This document shows positions 15,002 through 40,580 of a stretch of DNA of 64,000 bases, one piece after another (position 1 is the stretch's first letter; the number at the start of each line of letters is the position of its first letter). The DNA comes from a virus. The stretch spans positions 1 to 64,000 of IMG/VR virus record IMGVR_UViG_3300025133_000069. One strand, given 5' to 3'. The translations under genes and the position numbers were made by a program. Under the pieces are notes generated by a model. That model searched no databases and was not told the DNA's origin. It was given only the letters and a program-made list of their open reading frames with translations.

Positions 15002-18000
15002 ATGAAAAAAAGAACTATCACCAAATCTCAATTAGAAAATGTCATCTCTGAACGCTTGACTGGTCTATTGCAGGAAGAAAAAATAATTCCTGTAAAGAAA
15101 AGAACTATCACTAAGTCCCAATTAGAGAGCGTTATATCCGAACGTTTAACAAATCTCTTAAAAGAATCGAATCCTGTATTCAAAAATCCCGCCACAGGGC
15201 GTGTGAGGGGTGGGCGCACTGTGACGTCGGCCCGTGGCCTGGAGTTCGTCGAGGCTCACCTGACACACAGAGGGATTGCGCGCGGGCTCCAATTCGGAGT
15301 TAGTACAGAGGGACCACCCGAACAGTATTATTTAAAGGGTAATAATCCCAAAGATTGGCATTGGCCAACTTTAACGAATCGTGATTATGAAAAAGCGCTG
15401 CAGGCGGCCCATGACTTCCTGGGCTTCGAACCAATGCATGGAGAGGTTGGTCCCCATGGGGAGAAGCGCCGGATGATGCTCGCTGAAATGAGTTCGAAAC
15501 AATATTGGACAAGAGTTGCAGCATTACAGGATAAATATGAAAAGATATTACGTGAACACTTTGAAAAACATCCACTTGTTATTAAAGATCCAGTTCTCCG
15601 TCTCGGGAAAACGGCGCCGAGCAAAGCTGCCAAGCGCGCGGCGAGGAGAAGACTTGCTAAGGCGGGGCTCGCAATTGAGAAGCCGGCATATCATGCAGCG
15701 CGAACAGGGGCTGAGCAGCTACCAGCGGTTAAACCGGGCCGCGGCCAACCAGCCAGCAAAGCTGAAATAAAGAAGATGACAATTCCCGAACTAAAAGCTA
15801 AGCTGACGGGTATGGATGAAACGACACTTGCAAAACATCAATTGTCAGCAGAAGAAATAGTTAATGAAAGAATTAAACGAATGTCTTTTGGCAGAGCAAT
15901 AATTCAAGCAGATTCAGAGTGGATTGCAACAAACTTTATGAAAACAAAAGTGCCTGTTATACCACCATTCTTTGAATTAATGAAACTTGAATCTGAATGG
16001 AAAATACGTGAATTTTATCGCGTCATGGGGAGCCGCGGTCAGCGGAAGGGACGTTTGGATCTGCGGCCGGGTGATATTCTTGAAAATAAAGTAGAAACGC
16101 TTCGAGACGCTATGCGTTGGCTTAGTGGAATGGAAGAGATACCAGGGATGAAGGCCGGGATGACTGGAGAAAAATCCGCCATTGAATTAAGGAAAGAAAT
16201 TTGGAAAGGTAATATATCTGGTGAGTTAGAAGAAACAAAGCGTCAAGATCGCCATGGCGCGCACAGGAGCGAAATAGAAAAACAGTTACACACACTTGAG
16301 AAGCAAACGAATGCACTTGAAAAAGAGCTGGGGTATAAGAAGGGTAAAATATGGGAAGAATTATTATTAGACTATAAAGAAACACCGGTAATAGAGAAAG
16401 AAACAAGAGGAGAGCGTCGAAAAAGAGGATATCCAGAAAAGAAAGAAAAAAAAGGCACGCCCCAAGCAAAAAAGAAACTTCCAAGAAGAGTACGTACACT
16501 TGAACAACCAGGATGGCGTTATAGATCAGACCTGAGATTTCACGCCACGGCTCCGACTGCCTCCCCTAGAGAAATGTGGTCACCAACTTTGCAACGCTCT
16601 CCTTCAGCTGAGCCTTCAATGCCTGGTAAAAGGTATTTTGGAAACGAACAATTCCAGATAATGACAGCCTTACGTTCTTTAGGTGATCCTATAATTTTAC
16701 CAGATGAACTTTGGAATAATTTATATGGAGAAGGACCAATTTGGGGTGTTAAACTTCTAGGTACCCCGACGGAGCCGGTCCTGCGCGAAGAAGGATTATT
16801 TGGTAGATTTCCCAGTGGCCGCGGCTTGCCTGAAGAAATAATATCAGATTTAACATTTTGGAAAGATAATACGATATCAGAAAGTAAAGTTCGAGAACGT
16901 TTCAAACGTCTGCCTGAAGTGTTTGGTACTTTAAGAGACCTTCGGATTGCGGCGCCACAGGCCTGGCTCCCGAAAAAAATTGCAGATGTAGTATCTCCCA
17001 GGGGTCGTGACCCGGGTAGGTATGTTACCGATAAAATAATAAATGAATTTATTGATGCGTATTCTTTGAACTTGGGAACAACAGGAACTTCTGATATTCT
17101 TATTAGTGAAGATGGAACTATAAGATTTCTTGATAAAAAAGGCCGTCTGTCCCCCACAAAAAAATTGACACGAGGGAAGAATTTATTACAAGGTAAATTA
17201 CTAGAAGAAGTCGCAGATCTCATTGAAGAATTACATAAAGAAAGTGTAGCCAAAATAACAAGAGAAGAAGTTGTAAAAGCAACCCCAAGAGAAGGTGACC
17301 ACCTTCATTACCGTATTAACTTGGAGCGCGAACAGAGAGTCCGACCGACCTGGGGGGCAGGCGAGACGTTTGAGAGCAGGTATCCCGGTGGGAGCGCGCA
17401 TCCGCCGCGAACTGATCGAGGTGCTGGTATGCGTCCCAAATGGGAAAGATGGCATATAGGTGAACAGTATGTTCCAGATCTATTTCATGGAGAACGATTT
17501 GATATCGAAGGCACCACGGTCGGCGACCGGTCGTCGCGCCTGCAGCAGCTTTTGGCAATGCGAGGAGAAGATTCTGTTTGGGATGCTAAGCCATTAGAAA
17601 ATTTCAAAAATGACCCACGTCTCGGGAAACAACCTATAGGCCCCGATGGTAGGCCGATGGACTCCAACGCGTGGCATGATCAAGTGGTTTACCATTGGCC
17701 AGAGGAGGTGGCGGCCCGAAGAGCTCTGCGGGGCGCGGCTATAAACATGCGTAATAAGATACGTTATAGAGATGGGATCCCCCCGACGTCGGGGGGACGG
17801 CTCGTGATTGGTGCCAACTTACTTGAAGAAGCCAAGTTTGGACCAAGAGATATGAAATTAAAAGATGGCACAATTATATTCTTAGAAGATTATCTAATGC
17901 TAAAAGAAGGCGAGGGTATCTTGATGGGAGAATATGGGAAAAGATATGTTTATCCTATCCCCGTCAAAGCAAGGGAACACCACCCGGGAACCCAGCGTTG

Positions 18001-21000
18001 GGCAGAAAAAAACCTTCCCGATACTCCGTTGGCCCGGGCAAGGGCCCGGGCTATAGCCATAATAGGAGCAAATGCGTATGAAGGCGTTTATATGCCCTCC
18101 GGACCGTCTGGCGAAGGATCCCGTGTGGGCAACGCCTGGTACTTCGAGTCTGGCATGGAATCGTCGGTGTGGGAAACGAACCCTAACTGGATTGCGATTG
18201 AAGGTGATTCAACGTGGATGCACCAAGGCCAAATTGATAGGATTAAAAAACATATATTGGGAACTGAAAATGGTACGGCAAGATGGAATAGAGTAGAAAG
18301 GGATGTAGTACACTGGTTAAAGGATGGCATACCAAGTTATATAAAAGAAGAGTGGGTTGAAACAAATAAAAAAATCATCTACCTCCACCGGCGCCGGCTG
18401 AGCACGGCGTACGGTCCGGACGTGGATCGTGGGCGCGTGAGACGCGAAGTTGTGAAACTGATCGGGGAGATAGAGAAGGGTGAGGGTCCAGGTGTCTTAC
18501 GAGGCGCACAGATCAGTCCTATGACTCCCACGTGGAAGGCACCGAATGGAGCATTGATCCACGCAGGATTTCGAGATGATATGTACGAACTTTTGGAACT
18601 ATATGATCTTGAAAGTTCACATAAAATAGAAAAAGAGATTTTAACGCAAAAAGCATATAGTGACGCAATAAAAAATATGGAAAGACGTTGGCTTACTAAT
18701 AACTTCAAAGAACAATCTGTATATTTTGGTGGTCAATCGCGAGCGGAGAAGAGTTTGGGGCGTGCGAGGTTTGAGGTTACCTTGAGCCCTGAGGCGCGTA
18801 TTCTGTGGGTATTGCAAGATAGAGATTTATTAGAAATTATAGAATTTATGAATGAAAATCCAGGGGAGCGTGTTTTCATACCTAGAATAGTACAACATTA
18901 TTGGGGATCAGTTAGTACTTATCCTACAGGAAGAGCACTGCCAGAAGAAATATTAAATGATGTGAGGCTTTTAATCCATGATAAAATGACATCTGTTGAA
19001 GATGCCTTGCTACACACTGAACGGCGATGGGGTGGCGGCAAAACTACAAAAGAATGGAAGAACGATAAATTATGGGAAGAATATGTTAGAGAAAATATGC
19101 GCCTTGGAAGTAGGGGGTTTGGAGTTTGGCAAAAGGGTATTTGGGATCCCGAGACCGGTGATCCTGTATATGATGAGAAGGGTAAACAGAAATTTCGGCT
19201 AGAAGAAATTCATGATGAAGGCAAAGCTAAAAGAATAAAGAAGATTAATGAAGCAAGAGCGGAGAGACGGCGCGCAGCGGCGGAGAGACGGCGCCCGTCG
19301 CCCCAATCGCCGCGCCTCGACGTGACGTCCGGGCGTGGACTCGTACCTTCGGGTTTGCACGCGGAGCCCGTGCCCGGGTTTGGCGCGAGGTCTAATATAG
19401 TTTTGGCGACCGGCGAAATTGTGTCGGTAAATGTTGAATGGGCCCGGGAGTGGATTGAATCTGAATTATGGAAAAAATTAAACCCTGGTCGCGTGGAACC
19501 GCTCCTTAACCCCGTGGGGGAAGTGGAAAAAATGTATAATCAGCTTCTTCTTTATCCTGATTTGCCTGAGGGGGCAGCAAGAGTAGTACTCACTAACAAA
19601 GCTATAGCGGTTGAAGAACAAGTGTTGATCAATTTGATGCAAGGCCATACGAGCAGAGAATTTCACTTATTAGAATTTGAAAAGATTCTACGTCGGGAAA
19701 TGATTCCACAAGTAGAAGCTGGAAAAATTTCGCCGGCTAAAGCTGATGCTTTGGCGGCGAGATTGTCGCGACAGGCATGGGAAAAAGGCCTGAATCGTCA
19801 TATAATCCAATTGGAAATTCGAGCGCGGTCGGAAGCTGGAGCGTATGAAAGTGCAGAAGCATTAATGGCAAGAATTAATAATTCTGGCAATATACCTCCT
19901 TCTGTAAAGAAGGCTCTTAAGGGGGTTAAAAAAACTTTGCCTCCAGCAATGTTTATTTTGATAGGATACGGCATGTGGGAGATTTGGTATGATCCTGGAG
20001 CTGATCTTACCGATGATGATACAGTTTTTGAAAAAATTAGGCAGACTTCAATTCTGTTGGATCCAACAATTTTTGGTGTTCAAGCAGTTACAGGTGTTGT
20101 TGACATATTATATGAAGACAATCCAGAATGGCGCTGGGATGATCCGTGGCATCTTATTCCTGGACATATTCTTTGGAGTCGACTTGGCAAAATACGTGAA
20201 CCGGAAGAAGCAAAACGAAAAAGTAGAGAACACGCAGAGGCCGGCAAGGGCGTCCTCGATTGGGTTAGCAGGTATCGACCATGGTGGGGACAGCCGACAG
20301 GTCGAACGTTTGGAGGTGAGCATGCGCCTGGCGGGGCACATGTCCTGGGCCAGCATGATCGCTATGGTGGTATATCACCAGGTACATTAAAATTCTGTTT
20401 AGACCAACCAGATGATGGATGGTGTAAAGAATATGCACCAAATATATGGCCAGAATTTTGTTTGCAATATCCTGAGAGCGCAGAATGTAAAGATATCAAA
20501 GAGAAGATTAAGAATTATCGACAAGATATATTTGACAGATTTATGGATCCAATTAAAGAAAAAGCGCTAGAAGAATTAATAGGTGAACCATTTGAGCTTC
20601 CAGAAGATATATGTAAAGATGCAAAAGGAAGTACAGAAGAAGAGAAAAAGAAAGATTGTAAACGTCTTAAAAATTTAGCGTTCAAGCAACATCTTATGAA
20701 AGGTGTTTTTAAACAAATAGAACAAGATAAGGAACTCACACCTAAACGAGCATTTAAAAAACTATTAGATGAATGGACGTCTATGACCCTTGAAGGATGT
20801 AAAGATATTCCTGGCAATCCATGTAAAGCTGGATCTACCACATTACCCTTTAAGGATTGGGATGCCCGCGCGGCCAAAAAGAGATTGCCTAAACCTGTAG
20901 CTGAATTAGGACCTGAAGAAGAATTTGAAATGACTTTCGAACCAGATCCAATGGTGCCTCAAGATTATGATCCTGATACAGGGAAACCGAAAGCTAGACC

Positions 21001-21289
21001 TAAACCATCAGAATATGATCCAAAGGGCAAGGAACAAATGAAACGTAGAAGACAAAGCATACAAAAATATAAAGAAGCAACAGTCAGAACGTTGGTTAAA
21101 CGCATGTTAACAGGCGTTCGTGGAGCAGAGAGGGAAAAGAGAATAAAGCAAATAAAAGATTTGCAAAAAATTGACTTACCGTGGGATATGAAATGGCCAA
21201 GTAAACAGAGGTCCGTAAAAGAAAATCTTAATCTAGATATTGCAGAAATCGCAAAAATAATAATTGAAGAAACTAAAAAACTTTTCTAA
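15002..21289 (+). CDS. Giant (2095 aa) leader-A protein with doubled leader and C-terminal hydrophobic segments
   Basis: KKRTITKSQLENVISERL repeated twice; PPAMFILIGYGMW and ILLDPTIFGVQAVTGVVDIL; no recognised catalytic family. Confidence 0.8.
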   Translation: MKKRTITKSQLENVISERLTGLLQEEKIIPVKKRTITKSQLESVISERLTNLLKESNPVFKNPATGRVRGGRTVTSARGLEFVEAHLTHRGIARGLQFGVSTEGPPEQYYLKGNNPKDWHWPTLTNRDYEKALQAAHDFLGFEPMHGEVGPHGEKRRMMLAEMSSKQYWTRVAALQDKYEKILREHFEKHPLVIKDPVLRLGKTAPSKAAKRAARRRLAKAGLAIEKPAYHAARTGAEQLPAVKPGRGQPASKAEIKKMTIPELKAKLTGMDETTLAKHQLSAEEIVNERIKRMSFGRAIIQADSEWIATNFMKTKVPVIPPFFELMKLESEWKIREFYRVMGSRGQRKGRLDLRPGDILENKVETLRDAMRWLSGMEEIPGMKAGMTGEKSAIELRKEIWKGNISGELEETKRQDRHGAHRSEIEKQLHTLEKQTNALEKELGYKKGKIWEELLLDYKETPVIEKETRGERRKRGYPEKKEKKGTPQAKKKLPRRVRTLEQPGWRYRSDLRFHATAPTASPREMWSPTLQRSPSAEPSMPGKRYFGNEQFQIMTALRSLGDPIILPDELWNNLYGEGPIWGVKLLGTPTEPVLREEGLFGRFPSGRGLPEEIISDLTFWKDNTISESKVRERFKRLPEVFGTLRDLRIAAPQAWLPKKIADVVSPRGRDPGRYVTDKIINEFIDAYSLNLGTTGTSDILISEDGTIRFLDKKGRLSPTKKLTRGKNLLQGKLLEEVADLIEELHKESVAKITREEVVKATPREGDHLHYRINLEREQRVRPTWGAGETFESRYPGGSAHPPRTDRGAGMRPKWERWHIGEQYVPDLFHGERFDIEGTTVGDRSSRLQQLLAMRGEDSVWDAKPLENFKNDPRLGKQPIGPDGRPMDSNAWHDQVVYHWPEEVAARRALRGAAINMRNKIRYRDGIPPTSGGRLVIGANLLEEAKFGPRDMKLKDGTIIFLEDYLMLKEGEGILMGEYGKRYVYPIPVKAREHHPGTQRWAEKNLPDTPLARARARAIAIIGANAYEGVYMPSGPSGEGSRVGNAWYFESGMESSVWETNPNWIAIEGDSTWMHQGQIDRIKKHILGTENGTARWNRVERDVVHWLKDGIPSYIKEEWVETNKKIIYLHRRRLSTAYGPDVDRGRVRREVVKLIGEIEKGEGPGVLRGAQISPMTPTWKAPNGALIHAGFRDDMYELLELYDLESSHKIEKEILTQKAYSDAIKNMERRWLTNNFKEQSVYFGGQSRAEKSLGRARFEVTLSPEARILWVLQDRDLLEIIEFMNENPGERVFIPRIVQHYWGSVSTYPTGRALPEEILNDVRLLIHDKMTSVEDALLHTERRWGGGKTTKEWKNDKLWEEYVRENMRLGSRGFGVWQKGIWDPETGDPVYDEKGKQKFRLEEIHDEGKAKRIKKINEARAERRRAAAERRRPSPQSPRLDVTSGRGLVPSGLHAEPVPGFGARSNIVLATGEIVSVNVEWAREWIESELWKKLNPGRVEPLLNPVGEVEKMYNQLLLYPDLPEGAARVVLTNKAIAVEEQVLINLMQGHTSREFHLLEFEKILRREMIPQVEAGKISPAKADALAARLSRQAWEKGLNRHIIQLEIRARSEAGAYESAEALMARINNSGNIPPSVKKALKGVKKTLPPAMFILIGYGMWEIWYDPGADLTDDDTVFEKIRQTSILLDPTIFGVQAVTGVVDILYEDNPEWRWDDPWHLIPGHILWSRLGKIREPEEAKRKSREHAEAGKGVLDWVSRYRPWWGQPTGRTFGGEHAPGGAHVLGQHDRYGGISPGTLKFCLDQPDDGWCKEYAPNIWPEFCLQYPESAECKDIKEKIKNYRQDIFDRFMDPIKEKALEELIGEPFELPEDICKDAKGSTEEEKKKDCKRLKNLAFKQHLMKGVFKQIEQDKELTPKRAFKKLLDEWTSMTLEGCKDIPGNPCKAGSTTLPFKDWDARAAKKRLPKPVAELGPEEEFEMTFEPDPMVPQDYDPDTGKPKARPKPSEYDPKGKEQMKRRRQSIQKYKEATVRTLVKRMLTGVRGAEREKRIKQIKDLQKIDLPWDMKWPSKQRSVKENLNLDIAEIAKIIIEETKKLF
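15005..15166 (+). repeat. Tandem duplication of the leader-coding segment (90-nt period)
   Basis: aaaagaactatcac..aa.tc.caattaga.a..gt.at.tc.gaacg at 15005 and 15095. Confidence 0.85.
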
Positions 21290-21884: not shown

Positions 21885-21948
21885 ATTGATTTTTCCTTAA
21901 CGAAAATAAAATTTTATTGTACCTTTAATGTAGGTACTAGTTATTAGT

Positions 21949-22041
21949 ATGGAAACAGTTTTATTAGTGGCAGCAATGTTCTCAGTTTTTTTTATGGGAA
22001 TCATAATTGGAATAATCGTAGGAGCGGCAATTTATAAATGA
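21949..22041 (+). CDS. 30-aa TM micropeptide METVLLVAAMFSVFFMGIIIGIIVGAAIYK
   Basis: ACTAGTTA box 13 nt upstream; ATGA overlap with the next gene. Confidence 0.6.
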   Translation: METVLLVAAMFSVFFMGIIIGIIVGAAIYK

Positions 22042-22334
22042 AAATAGGTTTTCGAAAATACGACGATGGTTTAAAAAATAAAATCTTTCTTGATAATAAA
22101 CTTATCGGTGAAGTAGGACTAAACATTTGGAATCAAAAATGGAAGATGACTCCATATTTTAGTTTTAGTCCGATGGAACAAGGAATTTTATATTCTGAAT
22201 ATGGATCCTGTTATAAAGCAGGGAAAGCTTTAGTAAAATTATATTCTGATACTTATATGGTATTTGAAGAAGACGATTTAGATGATACGCAAGAGATAGA
22301 TATGAGGAGTATAATTAAACGTCGTCGTCCGTGA
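22038..22334 (+). CDS. Hypothetical protein
   Basis: ORF track; translationally coupled to its neighbours. Confidence 0.65.
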   Translation: MKIGFRKYDDGLKNKIFLDNKLIGEVGLNIWNQKWKMTPYFSFSPMEQGILYSEYGSCYKAGKALVKLYSDTYMVFEEDDLDDTQEIDMRSIIKRRRP

Positions 22335-22345
22335 GGATTCAAAGT

Positions 22346-24241
22346 ATGAAAAAAATAGCGCTAGCTTTTATGATATTTACTTTTTTGCAAATCGGTTGCA
22401 GCAATGTAGAACAAGGAGCTGGTTCTAATGATTTAGATGTTGCGGAAGATATCTCTGAAGATGTACACAAAGAAGAAATAGTTATTGTACCTTGGGAAGA
22501 AGAGGAACCCGAACCAGATCCAGAATGTATTGACTGTGCAATGTATTTCTGTCCTCCATTAGATGCAATTTGGAGAAAAGAAATATGCATGAATATATGC
22601 GATGATCCTCCTACACTTTACTCTGAATCTGAATGCATACAATATATGGAGTGTGATCCAACGCAATATCTTATTGACGAAGTTGAATGTATGACTGAAG
22701 ATGGATATCCTGGTACCCAAGAAAAGGTTTGTAATAAAGGGTTAATACAATATACAGACTGTACTACTGCCTGTGAAGAAGAGTTGTGTAATTATGAAGA
22801 CGACGACTGTGACGGTGAGATTGACGAAGGACAATTAAACGACTGTAACGAATGTGGGATTGTTCCTACAGAAGAATGTAATGGCGTCGATGATAATTGT
22901 GATGGGGATACAGACGAAGATTTAATTCAACCCTGCATCACAGCATGCGGTGCGGGATATGAAATGTGTTATGAGGGCAATTGGATATCTTGTACGGCGC
23001 CGCCGGAGAGTGATGAGATATGTGATGGCTTGGACAATGATTGTGATGGTCAAATAGACGAAAACTTAGATTGTGTATGTACCATACAAGATATTGGAGT
23101 GTTGTTTCCATGTCAAGATGATCCTCTTATATGTGGTCAAGGATATAAAACTTGTCAGTGTTTAGACCCTGATTGTATAGATCTTGTAATGACAGAATGT
23201 TATGCTTTGTGTTACTGGGCGCCTTCTGGCGATCCAAACGCTGTTTGTGACCCACTGATTGGTATGGAATTAGCACAGGAAAAATGTAATAATTTTGATG
23301 ATAATTGTAATCAAGAGATTGATGAAGATCTTTATGGCGCTTGCTACACAGGGCCAGAAGGCACCCTTATGGTTGGTATTTGTGTTCCTGGAGAGATGAC
23401 TTGTGATGCTGGGACTTGGGGAAATTATGATGAGGAAAATTTTATTCCATATTATTGTAAAGATGAAATAGTACCTCAAGATGAAATATGTAATGGATTA
23501 GATGATGATTGTGACGGTATAGCAGACTGGGGTGAAGAGATGAAAGAGACCGATGTCCTCTTCATCGTTGATTGGTCTGGATCGATGGGTGATGAGATGA
23601 GCGCTGTTATGATAGCATTAAATCAGTTTGCACAAAATTTCAGCGATGAGGATGTTATTAAGTGGGCATTTATGCGGGGCCCAGTGGCCGTGTTACCTTC
23701 AACTTATGATGAACGTTTGGAGCTAATACAAGATTTAATTGGATTTTCTGATTATTTAGTTTCATTAGCTGGAATGGATACCAGCATGCAATCAATGAGT
23801 ACTGCTTACGAGATGTTATTGGACGCGATTTATATATCAGTCCATAATATAACAGCTACGTTACCACAACCTATCTCCAATTTTGTTTGGCCCGGGGCAG
23901 CTAACTTTGGTACAAGTGTAATTGAATCGGAGCCTCCATTACAAAATTTCGATATCAGTTGGCGTTCGGGGGCTGATCGCATCATCATTGTTTTTAGTGA
24001 CGAAGTACCGCAAAGTTATTTAGAACCAAATTTAAGTATAGAAGAAGTCAAAACAGCTGTTTCCGGGACACCTCAACTTAAATTATTTACATTTTCTAGG
24101 ACGTCCGGGTCGTCCCAGTGGGAAGATATAGCTGTTGCCGGCAATGGCGCTTGGTACAAACTTACAAATAATCCTACAGAAATGTATGCTAGCTTAATGG
24201 AAATTCTTGATGAAATATGTAAAGGTGATACAAATGAATAA
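22346..24241 (+). CDS. Cys-rich, Ca/metal-binding-repeat lipoprotein with C-terminal vWA domain (myxobacterial adhesin-like)
   Basis: Start ATG 22346 MKKIALAFMIFTFLQIGC; five C(N/D)xxD(D/N)xC(D/N)xxxD repeats; MIDAS DVLFIVDWSGSM and RIIIVFSDE. Confidence 0.85.
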   Translation: MKKIALAFMIFTFLQIGCSNVEQGAGSNDLDVAEDISEDVHKEEIVIVPWEEEEPEPDPECIDCAMYFCPPLDAIWRKEICMNICDDPPTLYSESECIQYMECDPTQYLIDEVECMTEDGYPGTQEKVCNKGLIQYTDCTTACEEELCNYEDDDCDGEIDEGQLNDCNECGIVPTEECNGVDDNCDGDTDEDLIQPCITACGAGYEMCYEGNWISCTAPPESDEICDGLDNDCDGQIDENLDCVCTIQDIGVLFPCQDDPLICGQGYKTCQCLDPDCIDLVMTECYALCYWAPSGDPNAVCDPLIGMELAQEKCNNFDDNCNQEIDEDLYGACYTGPEGTLMVGICVPGEMTCDAGTWGNYDEENFIPYYCKDEIVPQDEICNGLDDDCDGIADWGEEMKETDVLFIVDWSGSMGDEMSAVMIALNQFAQNFSDEDVIKWAFMRGPVAVLPSTYDERLELIQDLIGFSDYLVSLAGMDTSMQSMSTAYEMLLDAIYISVHNITATLPQPISNFVWPGAANFGTSVIESEPPLQNFDISWRSGADRIIIVFSDEVPQSYLEPNLSIEEVKTAVSGTPQLKLFTFSRTSGSSQWEDIAVAGNGAWYKLTNNPTEMYASLMEILDEICKGDTNE

Positions 24242-24473: not shown

Positions 24474-25079
24474 TTGTTTAAAAAAATAGTAATATTATTA
24501 TCTATATTTTCCTGTTTTACATGTTCAGGCCATGGCCCTGGTGTTTTTTTATTAAATGAGAATAAACCTATTTATAAACGTTCAGTATGTGATCCAGAAA
24601 AATCTTTTCCTCAAATGATTATAATTCCTTTTTTTGAGAACGCTTCTCAGGTCGTACCGAATTGTCAAACATATCCCAAACATGAAACTACTTTGGCTTT
24701 ATTTGTTTTTTATCATAATTGGACTGAATATTTTGGTGATAGTAATTACGCTGTTAGAGGAATGCTTGAGAAGGTTATGATTCAGTGGGGTACTGATAAG
24801 AGGGTTAGTAAAAGAGGTTATAACCTCAAAGGAAAACCTTTTGAAAATCGCAATATTATAGGACGAGTTGAATCTGATACCATGACTTGGGTTTGGCAAG
24901 GTTATCATCATAGAATTTCACAAAGTGCTTTGTTTCATGAATTAGTTCATTTAGCATTGCGTGCCAAGTATGGCACTGCAGATCCAGACCACGAAGGTTC
25001 GAAATATCGTGGATGGACGCCGGCCCACTCTGCAATGATCGTTGAATCTAAACAAATGTTATCTGCCTTTAATTTATAG
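24474..25079 (+). CDS. Secreted or lipoprotein HExxH metallopeptidase-like protein
   Basis: Hydrophobic N-terminus with Cys; SALFHELVHLAL...DPDH; TTG start with GAGGA RBS. Confidence 0.7.
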   Translation: MFKKIVILLSIFSCFTCSGHGPGVFLLNENKPIYKRSVCDPEKSFPQMIIIPFFENASQVVPNCQTYPKHETTLALFVFYHNWTEYFGDSNYAVRGMLEKVMIQWGTDKRVSKRGYNLKGKPFENRNIIGRVESDTMTWVWQGYHHRISQSALFHELVHLALRAKYGTADPDHEGSKYRGWTPAHSAMIVESKQMLSAFNL

Positions 25080-25091
25080 GAGGGTTTATGA

Positions 25092-25337
25092 TTGAAATAT
25101 TTTATTAGTTTTACTATTTTCCTTTTTATTTTTTTAAATGCGACTGCTACTGTCGCCAAACAGCCTAAATCTAAATTTTATGATTTTAATGAACAGATTA
25201 TTGATGGCGAAGTAAAAAAACCGACGACCCTCTACACAAATGCCAGACAACAAGTAAAATTTGATCGACTTATGAAACTAAAAAAAAGTTTTTTACCAAA
25301 ATTATTTGCTACTGCCAAAGAAAGAGTTTTCAAATAA
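25092..25337 (+). CDS. CglF/GltF-like secreted gliding-motility protein
   Basis: Signal peptide, then YDFNEQIIDGEVKKP...Y..AR..VKF..L..L...F..K, matching my recollection of the myxobacterial CglF core; GGAGG RBS. Confidence 0.75.
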   Translation: MKYFISFTIFLFIFLNATATVAKQPKSKFYDFNEQIIDGEVKKPTTLYTNARQQVKFDRLMKLKKSFLPKLFATAKERVFK

Positions 25338-25369
25338 GAAAAACTATTTATATAGATCTGGAGCGTAAA

Positions 25370-27541
25370 ATGAAATCATATCACGATAATTGGCGTAATT
25401 TTTTAACAGAGGCGACCCCAATAAGACAAGACGATGGCGGTCCTGTCATGGTGGATAGTAGTTCGCTAGAGGAAGGCAGATATACTGCTGAAGCCTTGAC
25501 GAGAGTGGCCGAAGACACAGGGGTTAACCCAGCCTGGCTATGGGGCTTAATGGGCGCGGAATCAGGCGGCGGTAGAGGTAAATTTAGAGGTGGAAAATGT
25601 CAGGCGCGCGCATTCAATAATTATTTGCTTAAAGATCGCTGGGTGACGTACGAAAGTGGAAAGCGCGTTTTTAAAAGAGGCTATACCACCATATATAATG
25701 AAGATATTAAAGCCGTAAGAAATGCCGGCGTGAGAACTCGTGGTCAAACTTATGGTGATTCTCGCAAAGATCGATCTGCCGATTCACAGTTTCATAAATG
25801 TTTTAAAGTTGCGCCCAAGAGCGCAATTGCGGTTGCTGCCTGGGGCGCCAATCAAGTAATGGGTTTCAACATTAAAGAAATGTGGGAAAATGACCCACAA
25901 GGCTTCTATGATCGATGGTATGGTAACAATGGAGCAAACCAGTGTGCGATGAGTGAAGAAGCAAGTAGGGTTTATAATGCAGCGCCGCGGCGGAATGCGA
26001 AGCTTCAGAGATACTCTAATAATGCTGTTTTTGGGGGAATCAATGGTGCATATAGAAGTTGGCAGAGCATTGTACAAATATATCATGGGTCATCGCCCGG
26101 AAGTGAAAAAAATACAAGATATGTAAGTTCGGCCAGAAAAGCAGCAAAACAATTTATAGCAAAGTTCCCCAACCAGATGAGACAGTGGTGGAAAGATCGT
26201 GGCAAAAGCGAAGAAGAAATCAATACTTTTTTCAGAAGATGGAGGGTTAATCCCGGCGAGGCCTCAGTTGCAACACCAGCTTCTCCAGAATTGCCAATTG
26301 AGCCTGTATCAGAAATCAAACATAGAAAAATTCTTGTAATTGGTGATTCCAACACAGCTCGTATGAAAGCAGCTCTAACCCAAAAATATGGCGGGGATCC
26401 AAATACTGAAATAAAAGTTTGGGGCAGGGGTGTTGAAGATGGTGTGGCTACAACGACGAAATATATCTATAAAAATATAAAAGATCCAAATTCTAAATTA
26501 AAAAAACTCATTAATAACTTTAATCCAACTCATATTGTTATAGGTTCATTAGGTGGAAATGATTGGGCATATGCTTGTCCCGGTCGAGAAGAGACACTAC
26601 AAAGTTATATTAAAAATTATGTAAAACCACTTATGATATATATTAAAGCGCACAATGGATCATGGGGGGGTTTACCGCCGGCTGGGCCGGAGGCGACAAG
26701 AAAGTGTAAAGGTAAGTCTATACTTTTTCAACCAATGAGGGCTAAAATTAATGATAGATATAAACAAGTTGCAGAAGACATAGGCTTAGAATATCGCGAT
26801 GTTATAGGTTCAGGCTTTTTCAATCCTCCAGGTGATAAATATCATATTCCACAAAAAAAGTGGATAGACTATTTTAAAGATAATACTCTTGTGAGAAAAA
26901 AAATAAAAAAGAAATTCCCATTACGTTTAGATGTACCTGGTACAATTGTAGTTAAAACACATCCTCCACATGGAACTTCATGGGAAAGACCCTTCCCAGA
27001 AAAAGGATTACCATGGGGCATGAAGTGGCCTGAAGATCAAATCAACTTAGATATATCACAAATAGATGATTTCGAAGTAGCTTGTCATTTCTGGAACAAT
27101 CCTGAACATGAAAGTTTCTGGGGTTTTACAAATTATAAAAAGAAAGGTATGATTCTTAACAGAGAAGATCCATATGGTGAGATCCATGATGCGATAGAGG
27201 AATTATGGGAAGAGGCGATCGCTAGTGTAACTGAAGATTGCCCTGAAGGTACAAACTGCCGCGTTGATACAACTCCCTGGGTCACTAAACAAATTAACAA
27301 ACGTATTAAAAGAGGTGATTTAGAAAGTCCCGTAATTACTCATTGGAAGACAGAAGATATTATTGAACTTTTTAATAAAACAAGAAGTCGTTATCCAACA
27401 CGCTGGAAGCCTTGGTTTAAAGCAGGAATGTGTGATGGCGACTATGAATCAAAAATTAAAAGTCTTCTCGACCAAGAAGAAATAGAAGAGAGAGAAAGAG
27501 AAAAACACCGAAAACTATTCCGGCGTATGATGAACCGATAA
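25370..27541 (+). CDS. Leader-B cargo protein: N-acetylmuramidase-like domain plus SGNH hydrolase domain
   Basis: MKSYHDNWRNFLTE; GAESGG and AWGANQVMGFN (muramidase-like); LVIGDSN, LGGND, DKYH (SGNH); ACTATTTA at 25343. Confidence 0.8.
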   Translation: MKSYHDNWRNFLTEATPIRQDDGGPVMVDSSSLEEGRYTAEALTRVAEDTGVNPAWLWGLMGAESGGGRGKFRGGKCQARAFNNYLLKDRWVTYESGKRVFKRGYTTIYNEDIKAVRNAGVRTRGQTYGDSRKDRSADSQFHKCFKVAPKSAIAVAAWGANQVMGFNIKEMWENDPQGFYDRWYGNNGANQCAMSEEASRVYNAAPRRNAKLQRYSNNAVFGGINGAYRSWQSIVQIYHGSSPGSEKNTRYVSSARKAAKQFIAKFPNQMRQWWKDRGKSEEEINTFFRRWRVNPGEASVATPASPELPIEPVSEIKHRKILVIGDSNTARMKAALTQKYGGDPNTEIKVWGRGVEDGVATTTKYIYKNIKDPNSKLKKLINNFNPTHIVIGSLGGNDWAYACPGREETLQSYIKNYVKPLMIYIKAHNGSWGGLPPAGPEATRKCKGKSILFQPMRAKINDRYKQVAEDIGLEYRDVIGSGFFNPPGDKYHIPQKKWIDYFKDNTLVRKKIKKKFPLRLDVPGTIVVKTHPPHGTSWERPFPEKGLPWGMKWPEDQINLDISQIDDFEVACHFWNNPEHESFWGFTNYKKKGMILNREDPYGEIHDAIEELWEEAIASVTEDCPEGTNCRVDTTPWVTKQINKRIKRGDLESPVITHWKTEDIIELFNKTRSRYPTRWKPWFKAGMCDGDYESKIKSLLDQEEIEEREREKHRKLFRRMMNR

Positions 27542-28135: not shown

Positions 28136-30406
28136 ATGAAAAATTTAATTAAAGAAAACTTACTGGCTGTTAGTAACAAAACTTACCTTAAAGAAAATTT
28201 ATTGGCTGTTAATAAAGAAACTGCCGATCTTCTTCTTGAAGTACAACTTGACGCAGAACAACAGGAATGGCGTAAAAAAATAAATGCTATGGCTCCACCA
28301 GATGTGGTGAAAGGAGGCAATGGCTCGCTTACGGAACCGCAATGGAAACAAGCAAGAAGGATGGTCTATAAAAAGGACTGGGAAGGAATAAAAAAGATAA
28401 TTGAGAGGGGAACGTTCCAGAAAAATGTACCTGGTGCGGCTGCAACATACAAAGGCGGCGCGGTTAAGCAGTGTCCAAAAGGAGAATTTAGGTCAGGAGG
28501 TGAATGTGTTAAACTTCCTCCAATTAAAAGTTTCGCGGACGCGGACGCGGTGGATGCTTACGTGAAAAGAGTAGGGCGCCGGCCGTCCTTTATATTCTTA
28601 AAATCATTAAAAAAAGTTTATAGATGGGATGAGGAAGCAAAGAAATGGACTGAGGCTCCTCAGCTCACAGCTGCTGTTGCAGCGGACCCAGCTGTTGTTT
28701 CAGCTCCTGCTGCTGCACCGACAGCAGCAGCAGATATCCAAAAGAACTTTATTAAAAAATGCGGACCAGGGAGCAAAGAACATGGCACTCCGGTGTGTAA
28801 CCAACTTAATAAATTGACAGCGCTGTGGTCCGTGCATGCCTTCGACTTCACCCATGTGAAGGACGGGGCCATATATAGAAAAGGCTTAGCAGACTTTGAT
28901 CAAACTTTAGGAACTCATGGCCATATAAAAGCTGCACAACTTCTTGCAAGCCTGTTTAAGGAAGGAGAAGCTAAAAACAAAGCAAATGCAATTTTAGAAG
29001 AAATTGGAACAATTCCAATTGCTGCTGCTCCGACAGCTGAGCCTGCCGATAAAGGCGAATTAATAGGAGTTCCTCTTCTAGGTTATCAGTTTAAATCAGA
29101 TGAACCTTGGAAAGTAGAGAAATTGGAAATTTGGAATAGGCCGGATACAAAGAATAGAGAAGGCAAGATTGTTAAAAAAGGAATTAATTTGCTTAAATAT
29201 GGGGGCGCCGAATTTTCTTTAGATTCTCATTTGAAAGAAACAATGGGCTTTGCTTCTTGGGCAGCTTATAAAGGACTTAATAAAGAAGATCTTAAAAATA
29301 GAAATATCAAACCTTTCCATCTTGTCTTTATCTTTTTGGAGTATAGAAAGAATAAGAGAGCGGAAGCCGGAGAATTTATTTCTATAAATCTTAATGAGCC
29401 TAATATCGTTGAGAGAGACAAGATCGTAGCGAACCGAATTCATCAAACTAGATTAAAATTTAAAGATTTAGTGAACACAGAAATTCTTGATGGCTATACC
29501 AATCATAAAACAATAAAAGATATAGTAAGAATGCACTTTGAGGGAGCAGATACAGTTCAATTTACTATCGGTGGTGGTGGCACAATACAAATTCCCAAAT
29601 CGGCGAAGGCGGCCTTTGATCCAGAGGGCGGAAAAGGTAGTTATTTTACTCGTGCTGAGTTGACACTAGCTAAAAGAATCGGTATCAGTGCTATTCCGGT
29701 GAAGGGGGAAGTTACGCCTGGGACGCCGGTCGGTAAAGGGCCCGAAGCGCCGGTGCTCGGGCCGCCTGCGCAGGATACCCCGCCAGGCGAGCAGCCCGGG
29801 CCCGACGAGGAACCCAAGGCCGACGAGGAACCCAAGGCCGACGAGGAACCCAAGGCCGACGAGGAGCCCTCAGAAGGGAAACCAATATTAGAGGATACTC
29901 CTTATATGAAGGCAAGAGAAATAGTTAAGAGCAATACTAGAGAGACGGCAAAGAAGTCTAAGTTAAGAAAAATTGTTAACAGCCTGGCACCTCGATTTCT
30001 TGGAGGAGATACCGATAAAAAAGTTAAAGGAGGCAGAGGCTGGTTTACAGAAAAGGACTGGAGATTGGCGAGGCGAGCGCTTAAGCGCAACAAATTCAAG
30101 GAAGTAGCTCAGCTTATTCTTGACAGGGCTCAAACTGGTTCCGAGAATTCAGGTCCTTCGATGGACAATCTCTATGACCAAGCCAAAGATGAAGCAAAAA
30201 GATTATTAAGAGATAAACCGGTTCCGGCGAGCTGGTACTCTGACGATGACGAGGACGAGGAGGCAGAGTGGGGAGTTGTGCCTGACCCACGGATGGTGGG
30301 GAGAATGTTGCTCGCAATAAAAGATAAAGATGATATTTATAGAATGCCCGAGCCAGGATGGAAGTGGCTGAATTCGGAGAAAAAGGAGAAAGTAGTAAAG
30401 AGATAA
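28136..30406 (+). CDS. Large protein with variant doubled leader, Ala/Pro linkers and an internal repeat
   Basis: IKENLLAV repeated twice; LTEPQWKQARR and FTEKDWRLARR modules; EEPKAD repeats. Confidence 0.75.
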   Translation: MKNLIKENLLAVSNKTYLKENLLAVNKETADLLLEVQLDAEQQEWRKKINAMAPPDVVKGGNGSLTEPQWKQARRMVYKKDWEGIKKIIERGTFQKNVPGAAATYKGGAVKQCPKGEFRSGGECVKLPPIKSFADADAVDAYVKRVGRRPSFIFLKSLKKVYRWDEEAKKWTEAPQLTAAVAADPAVVSAPAAAPTAAADIQKNFIKKCGPGSKEHGTPVCNQLNKLTALWSVHAFDFTHVKDGAIYRKGLADFDQTLGTHGHIKAAQLLASLFKEGEAKNKANAILEEIGTIPIAAAPTAEPADKGELIGVPLLGYQFKSDEPWKVEKLEIWNRPDTKNREGKIVKKGINLLKYGGAEFSLDSHLKETMGFASWAAYKGLNKEDLKNRNIKPFHLVFIFLEYRKNKRAEAGEFISINLNEPNIVERDKIVANRIHQTRLKFKDLVNTEILDGYTNHKTIKDIVRMHFEGADTVQFTIGGGGTIQIPKSAKAAFDPEGGKGSYFTRAELTLAKRIGISAIPVKGEVTPGTPVGKGPEAPVLGPPAQDTPPGEQPGPDEEPKADEEPKADEEPKADEEPSEGKPILEDTPYMKAREIVKSNTRETAKKSKLRKIVNSLAPRFLGGDTDKKVKGGRGWFTEKDWRLARRALKRNKFKEVAQLILDRAQTGSENSGPSMDNLYDQAKDEAKRLLRDKPVPASWYSDDDEDEEAEWGVVPDPRMVGRMLLAIKDKDDIYRMPEPGWKWLNSEKKEKVVKR
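29802..29865 (+). repeat. 18-bp tandem repeat (~3.5 copies) encoding DEEPKA
   Basis: ccgacgaggaacccaagg x3 plus a partial copy. Confidence 0.95.
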
Positions 30407-40231: not shown

Positions 40232-40580
40232 GGGGGTGAACTGGTATCGACTGAGTATTGAAAATATAACGTGCAAGGCTGTGATGAGTGAAGGCACAGC
40301 ATAAAACACTCAAAATTTAAACGCCAACGATAACGTTGAGTTTGATTACGCCCTAGCGGCGTAGTCATGGGGAATGACGAGAGCCTTATTAACCAAAGAC
40401 TGTTCATCGATGGTTTTCTTCGGAAAGTAGATGTAAGAGGGTTTTTCCAAGTTAGGCCCATAGGATAAACTTGGTGGTGCGCGGTGCGAGTTTGTCAGAG
40501 TTCATAAACTGACTAACCTTGTGAATGACGTTGTATTAGAAATATTCAGGACCCGGGTTCGACTCCCGGCACCTCCACCA
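40232..40580 (+). ncRNA. ssrA: tmRNA; tag reading frame 40323-40364 encodes ANDNVEFDYALAA*
   Basis: 5' GGGGGTG pairs with 3' CACCTCC-ACCA including G3-U70; T-arm CCGGG TTCGACT CCCGG; tag ends YALAA; 349 nt. Confidence 0.96.

What the first reader, a model, noticed from the sequence alone, without database searches (positions are those of the whole stretch)
22346..24241. Phage-encoded integrin-like (vWA/MIDAS) Cys-rich lipoprotein of myxobacterial type
Seen: a lipoprotein-like signal, five CxxxDxxCxxxxD(E) acidic repeats (for example CDGLDNDCDGQIDE) and a C-terminal vWA domain with intact DxSxS. Established: such repeats are typical of Myxococcota surface proteins, and the M. xanthus gliding adhesins CglB and CglD are vWA-containing outer-membrane lipoproteins. 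Inference: the phage remodels adhesion or motility of the infected cell. In myxobacteria, OM lipoproteins can also be passed to kin by outer-membrane exchange.
Basis: partly seen in the sequence, partly recalled or inferred. Interest (0 to 1): 0.75.

Follow-up and report, generated by a model that had tools for sequence, protein, structure and literature searches.

The report
Phage integrin-like cysteine-rich surface lipoprotein
An uncultured marine T4-like phage, probably of myxobacteria-like hosts, encodes a lipid-anchored, disulfide-rich stalk carrying an integrin-beta-type metal-dependent binding head, in one operon with a copied host gliding-machine linker; its role is untested.

Summary
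ORF 22346-24241 (631 aa) has a signal peptide ending in an invariant lipobox-like Cys, five CxxxDDxCDGxxDE repeats (Pfam MopE, E 1e-10) and a C-terminal vWA domain with DWSGS. Its fold and a WR..A.RIIIVFSDE motif match integrin beta I-like domains.

It is not CglB or CglD. The CglD model gives no hit, and profile comparisons are weak (76% and 9% probability). It belongs to a mainly phage-borne family with two size classes. The long class forms one clade in 180-200 kb marine T4-like phages.

I found one chromosomal counterpart, in 1 of 401 Myxococcota genomes. The stalk's best cellular matches are nearly all Myxococcota.

The gene sits in a six-gene envelope-targeted unit. That unit also holds an HExxH lipoprotein and a GltF/CglF copy that is 75% identical to the gltF of a Myxococcales MAG's gltC-D-E-F cluster, which points to Myxococcota hosts.

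The protein is most likely exported to the infected cell's outer membrane as a MIDAS-dependent binder. Whether it remodels adhesion or gliding, or masks a receptor, is untested.

This scan has reported the same family before, on other phage contigs. Interest is moderate.

The parts
21936..21943 (+). ACTAGTTA box, a candidate phage promoter that opens the transcription unit
   Evidence: The pattern ACTA[TAG]TTA occurs 21 times against 10.1 expected, 18 of them on the + strand and mostly just upstream of starts. The next box is at 25343. Promoter function is inferred.
21949..22041 (+). 30-aa hydrophobic peptide ORF (METVLLVAAMFSVFFMGIIIGIIVGAAIYK) whose stop overlaps the next start (ATGA)
   Evidence: Read from the sequence.
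22038..22334 (+). 98-aa ORF of unknown function, without a signal peptide
   Evidence: Searches gave no family hit. Homologues lie next to the vWA gene in some related phages.
22346..22399 (+). Signal peptide and lipobox-like LQIG-C18
   Evidence: Cys invariant in 24/24.
22400..22519 (+). Acidic low-complexity tether (residues 19-58, 38% D+E)
   Evidence: pLDDT is below 50, and length and sequence vary among orthologues.
22520..22780 (+). N-terminal Cys-rich beta domain (residues 59-145, 11 Cys), highly conserved in the long class
   Evidence: pLDDT 70-88. No PDB fold match.
22781..23539 (+). MopE-repeat stalk (residues 146-398, 30 Cys). The five CxxxDDxCDGxxDE repeats are at 22787-22828, 22877-22918, 23021-23062, 23285-23326 and 23489-23530.
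   Evidence: Best cellular matches are Myxococcota MAGs at 29-51% identity. Myxococcota genomes give DNA-level hits of 30-130 nt on four of the repeat patches.
23540..24241 (+). Integrin beta I-like vWA domain (residues 399-631) with MIDAS DWSGS at 23570-23584, WRSGADRIIIVFSDEVPQSY, C-terminal Cys625, and the stop codon
24234..24461 (+). 75-aa coiled-coil ORF whose ATG overlaps the vWA stop codon
   Evidence: coiled-coil type hits only. Found near the vWA gene in many related phages.
24474..25079 (+). 201-aa lipoprotein-like protein (MFKKIVILLSIFSC) with HELVH, a putative zinc metallopeptidase
   Evidence: Pfam Tox-MPTase3 is only E 0.099. Atlas neighbours are viral, and the nearest named clusters are peptidases at 0.82, a lead only.
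25092..25337 (+). 81-aa secreted GltF/CglF-family protein
   Evidence: NF033764 E 4.8e-9. 75% aa and 73% nt identity to the gltF of a gltC-D-E-F cluster in a Myxococcales MAG. 114 genome loci carry relatives at 50-77% identity, nearly all Myxococcota.
25343..25350 (+). Next ACTATTTA box, which starts the following gene (25370)

Best explanation
The gene encodes a protein made in the infected cell, exported by the Sec pathway and lipid-modified at Cys18. It is then anchored in the host outer membrane, probably facing outward.

A roughly 40-residue acidic tether and a stalk of about 340 residues with about 21 disulfides hold a beta-integrin-type vWA head away from the membrane. The stalk is probably calcium-loaded, being built from MopE-type Cys/Asp modules. 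The head's MIDAS metal would bind an acidic side chain of a protein ligand.

The gene belongs to a mainly phage-borne family and was acquired once by the ancestor of a clade of 180-200 kb marine T4-like phages. These phages most likely infect uncultured Myxococcota.

The gene is co-transcribed with other envelope-directed products: a membrane peptide, an HExxH lipoprotein, and a copy of the host's periplasmic GltF linker of the Agl-Glt gliding/focal-adhesion machine. I read the unit as a phage toolkit that re-equips the infected cell's adhesion and gliding surface. In this reading the vWA lipoprotein is a phage-supplied surface adhesin and GltF is a replacement linker.

Shown here: the domain anatomy, conservation, the family's distribution, the operon layout and the GltF copy. 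Inferred: export, lipidation, surface exposure, calcium binding, the ligand, and the benefit to the phage.
For: Signal peptide and invariant Cys. 42 further Cys, an even number, with one at the C-terminus; such a protein needs an oxidising compartment. Stalk model pLDDT 80. vWA fold with beta I-like best hits. The only PDB profile hits are integrin beta-8, aligned at DxSxSM and WR..A..LLV.TD. MIDAS residues are invariant across orthologues of 37-82% identity. More than 2800 marine metagenome homologues and 42 IMG/VR loci. The long class is one clade at 100/100 support. Operon packing with overlapping or SD-coupled starts between two boxes. The other products of the unit also carry export signals. 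GltF copy and host link. 19 of 41 vWA-carrying virus records, and 7 of 9 that are at least 80% complete, also carry a GltF-like gene. In a complete relative the gene lies about 106 kb from the Gp23 capsid gene. The protein lacks the N-terminal leader tags of its neighbouring genes.
Against: There is no experimental evidence for export, lipidation or localisation. The lipobox is non-canonical in this and many orthologues (-1 can be F, V, T, Y or N). The ligand is unknown. In several genomes the vWA and GltF genes lie 40-50 kb apart, so they need not act together. The probable host lineage (G340) has no orthologue of this vWA head, so there is no direct link to a host adhesin. Similarity to CglD and CglB is only generic. 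The host assignment is indirect. RNA evidence is two 151-nt contigs over the operon's 3' end only.
Confidence: 0.5

Rival explanations
1. Receptor masking or superinfection exclusion. The exported lipoprotein binds and blocks the phage's own receptor on the infected cell and its debris, by analogy with T5 Llp or Cor. This would prevent secondary infection and the loss of progeny on lysed cells.
For: It has the same anatomy as the best explanation: an outer-membrane lipoprotein with a protein-binding head. It is conserved as a single-copy gene across a lytic T4-like clade. The head carries variable insertions next to a conserved MIDAS, as expected if the ligand co-evolves. Receptor-blocking phage lipoproteins are established knowledge.
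Against: Known receptor-blocking lipoproteins are about 60-80 aa, not 630 aa with a long stalk. The receptor is unknown. This reading does not explain co-carriage of a GltF copy unless the Glt outer-membrane platform is the receptor.
Confidence: 0.25
2. Virion-associated or released adhesin. The protein decorates the particle, or outer-membrane vesicles and debris, and helps adsorption to host or particles.
For: vWA domains are adhesive. The candidate promoter box is shared with neighbouring genes that carry capsid-targeting-like leaders (earlier notes).
Against: A Sec signal with an invariant lipobox Cys and about 21 disulfides does not fit cytoplasmic virion assembly. The protein lacks the leader tags. 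The gene lies outside the structural block. There are no PHROG structural hits.
Confidence: 0.06
3. Metal handling. The MopE-type repeats bind copper or calcium, and the protein serves as a periplasmic or surface metal store or scavenger rather than as an adhesin.
For: Pfam names PF11617 a putative metal-binding motif. The protein is extremely acidic, with 133 D+E and pI 4.05.
Against: The most strictly conserved functional motif is the MIDAS of the vWA head, which is a ligand-binding device. The repeats look structural, as disulfide and calcium modules like TSP3 or LDLa; that comparison is from established knowledge and was not tested here.
Confidence: 0.06
4. Host-derived passenger gene with no role for the phage.
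For: The gene lies in a plastic region where gene order differs between related phages.
Against: All 42 Cys and the MIDAS are kept through divergence down to about 40% identity, the long class descends vertically as one clade, and thousands of variants occur in the ocean.
Confidence: 0.03

Closest known systems
CglD of Myxococcus xanthus (beta-integrin-like gliding lipoprotein; NCBIfam NF033765; bioRxiv 10.1101/2023.10.19.562135)
   Same: Both are lipoproteins and Cys-rich (46 Cys in CglD, 43 here). Both have an acidic, calcium-type repeat region N-terminal to a beta I-like vWA with DxSxSM, and both share a [WF]R..A....(I/L)(I/L)..D...QS strand motif. The nearest bacterial Atlas look-alike is the TSP3+VWA(+MopE) family of Myxococcota at 0.83, which is a lead only.
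   Different: The CglD model gives no hit. hhalign gives only 76% probability over 76 columns, or 24% for the full length. CglD is 1130 aa with TSP3/COMP DxDxDG repeats and an EGF-like stalk after the head. The phage protein is 631 aa, with MopE repeats before the head. It is not an orthologue.
CglB of M. xanthus (alpha I-like vWA adhesin of the Glt outer-membrane platform; PMC9946355)
   Same: Outer-membrane lipoprotein, Cys-rich (17 of 416 residues), vWA with MIDAS, surface adhesin.
   Different: In CglB the vWA is N-terminal (D56) and followed by a beta-jellyroll, with no MopE stalk. hhalign against a CglB-like ORF of a Myxococcaceae MAG gives probability 8.7%, covering the MIDAS strand only.
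Integrin beta-subunit beta I domain
   Same: Best Foldseek hits (9p95_B, 8xfo_B and others, E about 2e-7). The only PDB profile hits are integrin beta-8 (E 0.0035), aligned at the MIDAS DxSxSM and the WR..A..LLV.TD strand. A Glu (E98) rather than a Thr is the invariant residue at the third MIDAS position; beta integrins use Glu there, which I state from established knowledge and did not test.
   Different: Sequence identity is 10-13%. There is no hybrid or PSI domain and no alpha-subunit partner. The context is bacterial and phage.
Short-class phage MopE-vWA lipoproteins (about 390-440 aa) and the chromosomal homologue in Myxococcota genome G050
   Same: They have the same architecture: lipobox Cys, MopE repeats, the same vWA and a terminal Cys. 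hhalign gives probability 100%, E 5e-45. BLASTP to G050 gives 29% identity over 499 columns, E 6e-42.
   Different: The stalk is shorter (3-5 repeats). They lack the N-terminal Cys domain and the roughly 30-residue insertion in the head. The long class is a separate clade.
T5 Llp / Cor-type phage lipoproteins (functional analogy only)
   Same: Phage-encoded outer-membrane lipoproteins made during infection.
   Different: They are about 60-80 aa, have no vWA, and show no sequence or fold relation. The analogy comes from established knowledge and was not tested.

Membership tests
vWA / MIDAS domain (integrin beta I-like) | Rossmann-like alpha/beta vWA fold | tested here: met
   AF2 pLDDT 70-94 for residues 400-625. 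Foldseek prob 1.00 to integrin beta, vWF-A3 and TRAP.
vWA / MIDAS domain (integrin beta I-like) | DxSxS plus distal acidic MIDAS residues conserved | tested here: met
   DWSGS, E98 and D161 are invariant in 26 orthologues. Their spatial arrangement was not inspected.
vWA / MIDAS domain (integrin beta I-like) | Pfam VWA gathering score | tested here: not met
   PF00092 scores 14.4 bits against 23.8; PF13519 scores 11.9 against 27. The family is too divergent for the sequence model.
PF11617 MopE-type repeat proteins | Pfam gathering score | tested here: met
   41.9 bits against 27, in 4 stretches.
Bacterial lipoprotein (signal peptidase II substrate) | n-region, h-region and lipobox with invariant Cys | tested here: inconclusive
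   The Cys is invariant, but the -3 and -1 residues are often non-canonical. Lipidation cannot be tested here.
CglD (NF033765 equivalog) | Model score of at least 400 bits | tested here: not met
   No match at E 0.01 in G000, while the true CglD of G001 and G002 score above 1300 bits. hmmscan also found nothing at E up to 1.
CglD (NF033765 equivalog) | TSP3/COMP-like DxDxDG repeat region | tested here: not met
   No TSP_3 hit. The repeats are of the MopE type.
CglB | N-terminal vWA followed by a beta-jellyroll, about 416 aa | tested here: not met
   Different architecture. hhalign probability 8.7% to a CglB-like ORF. That ORF's identity as CglB rests on its lipobox, 17 Cys and DxSxS at about residue 55.
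GltF/CglF (neighbouring gene 25092-25337) | NF033764 cut-off of 90 bits | tested here: not met
   36 bits. The genuine gltF inside the gltC-D-E-F cluster of G340 also scores only 37 bits.
GltF/CglF (neighbouring gene 25092-25337) | Close homology to a gltF located in a glt gene cluster | tested here: met
   75% aa identity to L230:6949-7125, which is flanked by GltC-like, TPR and GltE-like genes.
Virion structural protein | Location in the structural module, structural PHROG hit, or capsid-targeting leader | tested here: not met
   Virion proteomics cannot be tested here.

The most novel reading that the evidence does not exclude
The phage installs its own parts in the host's Agl-Glt focal-adhesion machine. 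A GltF copy keeps or rewires the periplasmic link. The HExxH lipoprotein sheds the host adhesin; CglB is known to be released by an unidentified metalloprotease (PMC9946355). The integrin-like lipoprotein replaces it as the surface adhesin. Together these would redirect what the infected cell sticks to or glides towards, for example kin cells. As an outer-membrane lipoprotein it could also be handed to uninfected kin by outer-membrane exchange.
Probability: 0.1. Interest if true: 0.85.

Novelty: new variant of a known kind. Interest (0 to 1): 0.55.

Why it matters
Integrin-like vWA lipoproteins are the substratum adhesins of myxobacterial gliding. If a widespread, abundant clade of marine phages carries its own version together with a copied machine subunit, then phages manipulate host adhesion or motility hardware, not only metabolism. 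The finding also gives two practical handles. The GltF copy is a host marker that assigns an abundant group of uncultured 180-200 kb marine phages to Myxococcota. The small set of genes could be tested heterologously in Myxococcus xanthus. The function is still unknown, and the same family has already been reported by this scan on other contigs.

Tried and rejected
- tblastn of the protein against INPHARED phages gave no match.
- PHROGs and NCBIfam gave no hit for the target.
- A full-length profile against PDB sequences gave none at E up to 1.
- The single-sequence vWA domain found nothing in five Myxococcota genomes. The vWA profile found only MIDAS-strand hits of 20-23 bits in G340, G170, G332 and G433.
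- The search for related loci with A1 and A4 in genome contigs was driven by the MopE patterns. It returned repeat-only matches, so it says nothing about the head.
- Stalk fold search: Foldseek best E 0.43 and VIA best Z 3.8 over about 40 residues. No fold was assigned, and this does not show that the fold is new.
- tmRNA DNA similarity to Myxococcota covered only the conserved 3' end. The tag ANDNVEFDYALAA resembles the Archangium tag ANDNVELALAA but is weak host evidence.
- RNA: one metatranscriptome run holds two 151-nt contigs at 24993-25143 and 25165-25312. The vWA gene is not covered, and DNA carry-over cannot be excluded.
- A spanin reading of the lipoprotein plus coiled-coil pair was considered and dropped, because the sizes and domain content do not fit.
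- The tree has no outgroup, so the direction of transfer between phages and G050 is unresolved.
- Literature searches for MopE + phage + von Willebrand found nothing. A 2026 preprint on myxophages mentions neither gene.

Full report
**Setting**

The window is the first 64 kb of a 76.4-kb IMG/VR virus record (CheckV completeness 42%). GC is 32-47% and nearly all genes lie on the + strand. It carries DnaB, a class II ribonucleotide reductase and PhoH-PIN with strong PHROG hits. It also carries glycosyltransferases, an amidase, a tmRNA and two tRNAs.

Complete relatives of 180-190 kb that carry the same gene encode a T4 Gp23-type capsid protein (E 1e-58 to 1e-62). This is therefore a T4-like marine phage clade.

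**The observation**

The ORF runs from ATG 22346, with a GAGGA 8 nt upstream, to the stop at 24241. Its parts in order are:

- a signal peptide ending in LQIG-C18;
- a 40-residue acidic tether;
- a conserved 11-Cys beta domain (residues 59-145);
- a 30-Cys stalk with five CxxxDDxCDGxxDE repeats (residues 148, 178, 226, 314, 382);
- a C-terminal domain with DWSGS at residue 409 and a last Cys at 625.

Pfam MopE is significant (41.9 bits, E 1e-10). Pfam VWA is sub-threshold.

An AF2 model gives the C-terminal domain pLDDT 70-94. Foldseek places it among vWA domains with probability 1.00, with integrin beta I-like domains as the best hits, then vWF-A3 and TRAP. A profile of the domain finds only integrin beta-8 in the PDB sequence set (E 0.0035). 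The aligned segments are DxSxSM and the WR..A.R(I/L)4.(S/T)D strand.

Across 26 orthologues of 37-82% identity the DWSGSM motif, a Glu (E98) and the SDE motif are invariant. All 43 Cys are invariant in 24 full-length orthologues. One Cys is the lipid-anchor position. The other 42 allow 21 disulfides, so the C-terminal Cys must pair back into the stalk.

**What family it is**

More than 2800 proteins from marine metagenomes match at 63-91% identity. 42 IMG/VR loci carry relatives down to 40% identity.

A vWA-only profile searched against 1.84 billion representatives finds 785 proteins. Beyond the long form there is a second class of about 390-440 aa. It has the same plan: lipobox Cys, three MopE repeats, the same head and a terminal Cys. 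hhalign gives probability 100%, E 5e-45.

The ESM Atlas labels the nearest clusters of both classes as 100% viral, Uroviricota. IMG/VR contigs of GC 0.36-0.58 carry short-class or intermediate forms.

In 401 sampled genomes of the Myxococcota phylum, only one (G050, 3.3 Mb) has a true homologue. That ORF has a lipoprotein signal, five MopE repeats, the vWA and the terminal Cys. It is 29% identical over 499 collinear columns (E 6e-42). It lies between an aminoacyl-tRNA synthetase, EF-P, DapD and DapE, which is a chromosomal context.

In a maximum-likelihood tree of the heads, the long class is one clade (100/100). G050 is nested in the diverse short class. The tree is unrooted and its branches are long, so the direction of transfer is open.

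**Relation to CglB and CglD**

The CglD model NF033765 finds true CglD in two Myxococcaceae/Archangium genomes at more than 1300 bits but finds nothing in the phage.

Profile-profile comparison of the phage head with CglD and its paralogues gives 76% probability over 76 columns. The full-length comparison gives 24%. The alignments are in register at the MIDAS and at the [WF]R..A....D...QS strand.

Against a CglB-like lipoprotein the probability is 8.7%. That protein has 17 Cys and DxSxS at about residue 55.

CglD has TSP3/COMP repeats and an EGF-like stalk. CglB has an N-terminal head and a jellyroll. The phage protein works like this kind of adhesin on paper, but it is not a member of either family.

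The stalk alone models well (pLDDT 80) but has no recognisable PDB counterpart.

**Host and neighbourhood**

The stalk's best cellular matches are almost all Myxococcota, Bradymonadia or Bdellovibrionota MAGs. At the DNA level, four of the repeat patches hit many Myxococcota genomes.

The target lies in a tightly packed unit bounded by two ACTA[TAG]TTA boxes at 21936 and 25343. The unit holds, in order:

- a 30-aa membrane peptide;
- a 98-aa ORF;
- the vWA lipoprotein;
- a 75-aa coiled coil whose ATG overlaps the vWA stop;
- a lipoprotein-like HExxH protein;
- an 81-aa secreted protein.

The 81-aa protein hits NCBIfam CglF (E 4.8e-9). Myxococcota genomes carry one true CglF plus weaker paralogues, and 14 control genomes carry none.

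A DNA search found 73% nucleotide identity to genome G340. There the 75%-identical protein lies directly after GltC-like, 1118-aa TPR and GltE-like genes. The contig is JABWCM010000181.1, Myxococcales MAG_56. That host gltF scores the same 37 bits as the phage copy, so the low score reflects the lineage, not decay.

114 genome loci encode this GltF type at 50-77% identity, and nearly all are Myxococcota. Among vWA-carrying virus records, 19 of 41 also have a GltF-like gene, as do 7 of the 9 that are at least 80% complete. The two genes are sometimes 40-50 kb apart.

G340 and four related genomes lack the phage-type head. So GltF is a recent host capture, while the vWA lipoprotein is an old phage family. 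GltF is described as the periplasmic bridge between GltC and GltG/GltD. CglF and GltF are the same protein.

**Mechanism**

The signal peptide with an invariant Cys, the 21 potential disulfides and the export signals on the operon partners all argue for a protein placed in the infected cell's envelope rather than a virion part. So do the gene's distance from the capsid gene and the lack of the neighbours' leader tags.

A MIDAS head on a long rigid stalk is the design of a surface binder. My preferred reading (0.5) is a phage-supplied surface adhesin that, with the GltF copy, re-equips the host's adhesion and gliding surface. Receptor masking (0.25) fits the same anatomy and cannot be excluded.

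Export, lipidation, calcium binding, the ligand and the benefit to the phage are all inferred.

A metatranscriptome holds two short contigs over the HExxH/GltF junction and the GltF gene. This is only a weak hint of transcription.

**Novelty**

I found no description in the searched literature. This scan has already reported the family and the GltF copy on other phage contigs. The present window adds several points:

- the beta-integrin sequence signature;
- the two-class family structure, with a monophyletic long class;
- a chromosomal counterpart in one Myxococcota genome;
- the absence of the head from the GltF-donor lineage;
- the six-gene operon layout.

Noticed in passing
window 25092-25337: An 81-aa secreted GltF/CglF-family protein. 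It is 75% identical in protein and 73% in DNA to the gltF that follows the gltC-like, TPR and gltE-like genes in Myxococcales MAG_56 (L230/L239). 114 Myxococcota-type genome loci carry this GltF type at 50-77% identity. This is the strongest host clue for the phage clade.
   Followed up: yes
window 24474-25079: A 201-aa lipoprotein-like protein with HELVH, a putative zinc metallopeptidase. It recurs next to the vWA gene in about 10 related phage loci. M. xanthus CglB is known to be shed by an unidentified metalloprotease (PMC9946355), so a link is conceivable but untested.
   Followed up: partly
L323:5496-7166 (G050:C131, 9.5-kb contig): A chromosomal full-architecture homologue (lipobox, five MopE repeats, vWA, terminal Cys) in a 3.3-Mb Myxococcota-phylum genome. 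It lies between an aminoacyl-tRNA synthetase, EF-P, DapD and DapE, and is the only such hit in 401 genomes sampled.
   Followed up: yes
window 29785-29872: A GC-rich tandem 18-nt repeat inside the 756-aa ORF (28136-30406). It encodes DEEPKA three times and has DNA-level hits (75-86% over 50-100 nt) in dozens of Myxococcota genomes, often in tandem there as well.
   Followed up: partly
window 22771-23072 and 23475-23526: The MopE repeat codons of the AT-rich phage gene match Myxococcota genomes at 81-97% over 30-60 nt. The repeat patches therefore keep GC-rich codons that are unusual for this phage.
   Followed up: partly
window 40232-40580: Phage tmRNA with tag ANDNVEFDYALAA. An Archangium genome has ANDNVELALAA and a TARA proteobacterial MAG has ANDNAFALAA. 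The shared ANDNVE start is suggestive but is weak host evidence.
   Followed up: partly
window 21936, 25343 and 19 other sites: The ACTA[TAG]TTA box occurs 21 times against 10 expected, 18 of them on the + strand and mostly just upstream of start codons. It brackets the six-gene unit that contains the target.
   Followed up: partly
window 15002-21289 and 25370-27541: The flanking genes are a 2095-aa protein and a 723-aa muramidase-like protein. They start with short shared leader motifs (MKKRTITKSQLE..., MKSYHDNWRNFLTE) that the target lacks. They resemble capsid-targeting tags of T4 internal proteins.
   Followed up: no
window 24993-25312: One seawater metatranscriptome run holds two 151-nt contigs at 99% identity or more, one of them spanning the HExxH/GltF gene junction. 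None covers the vWA gene.
   Followed up: partly
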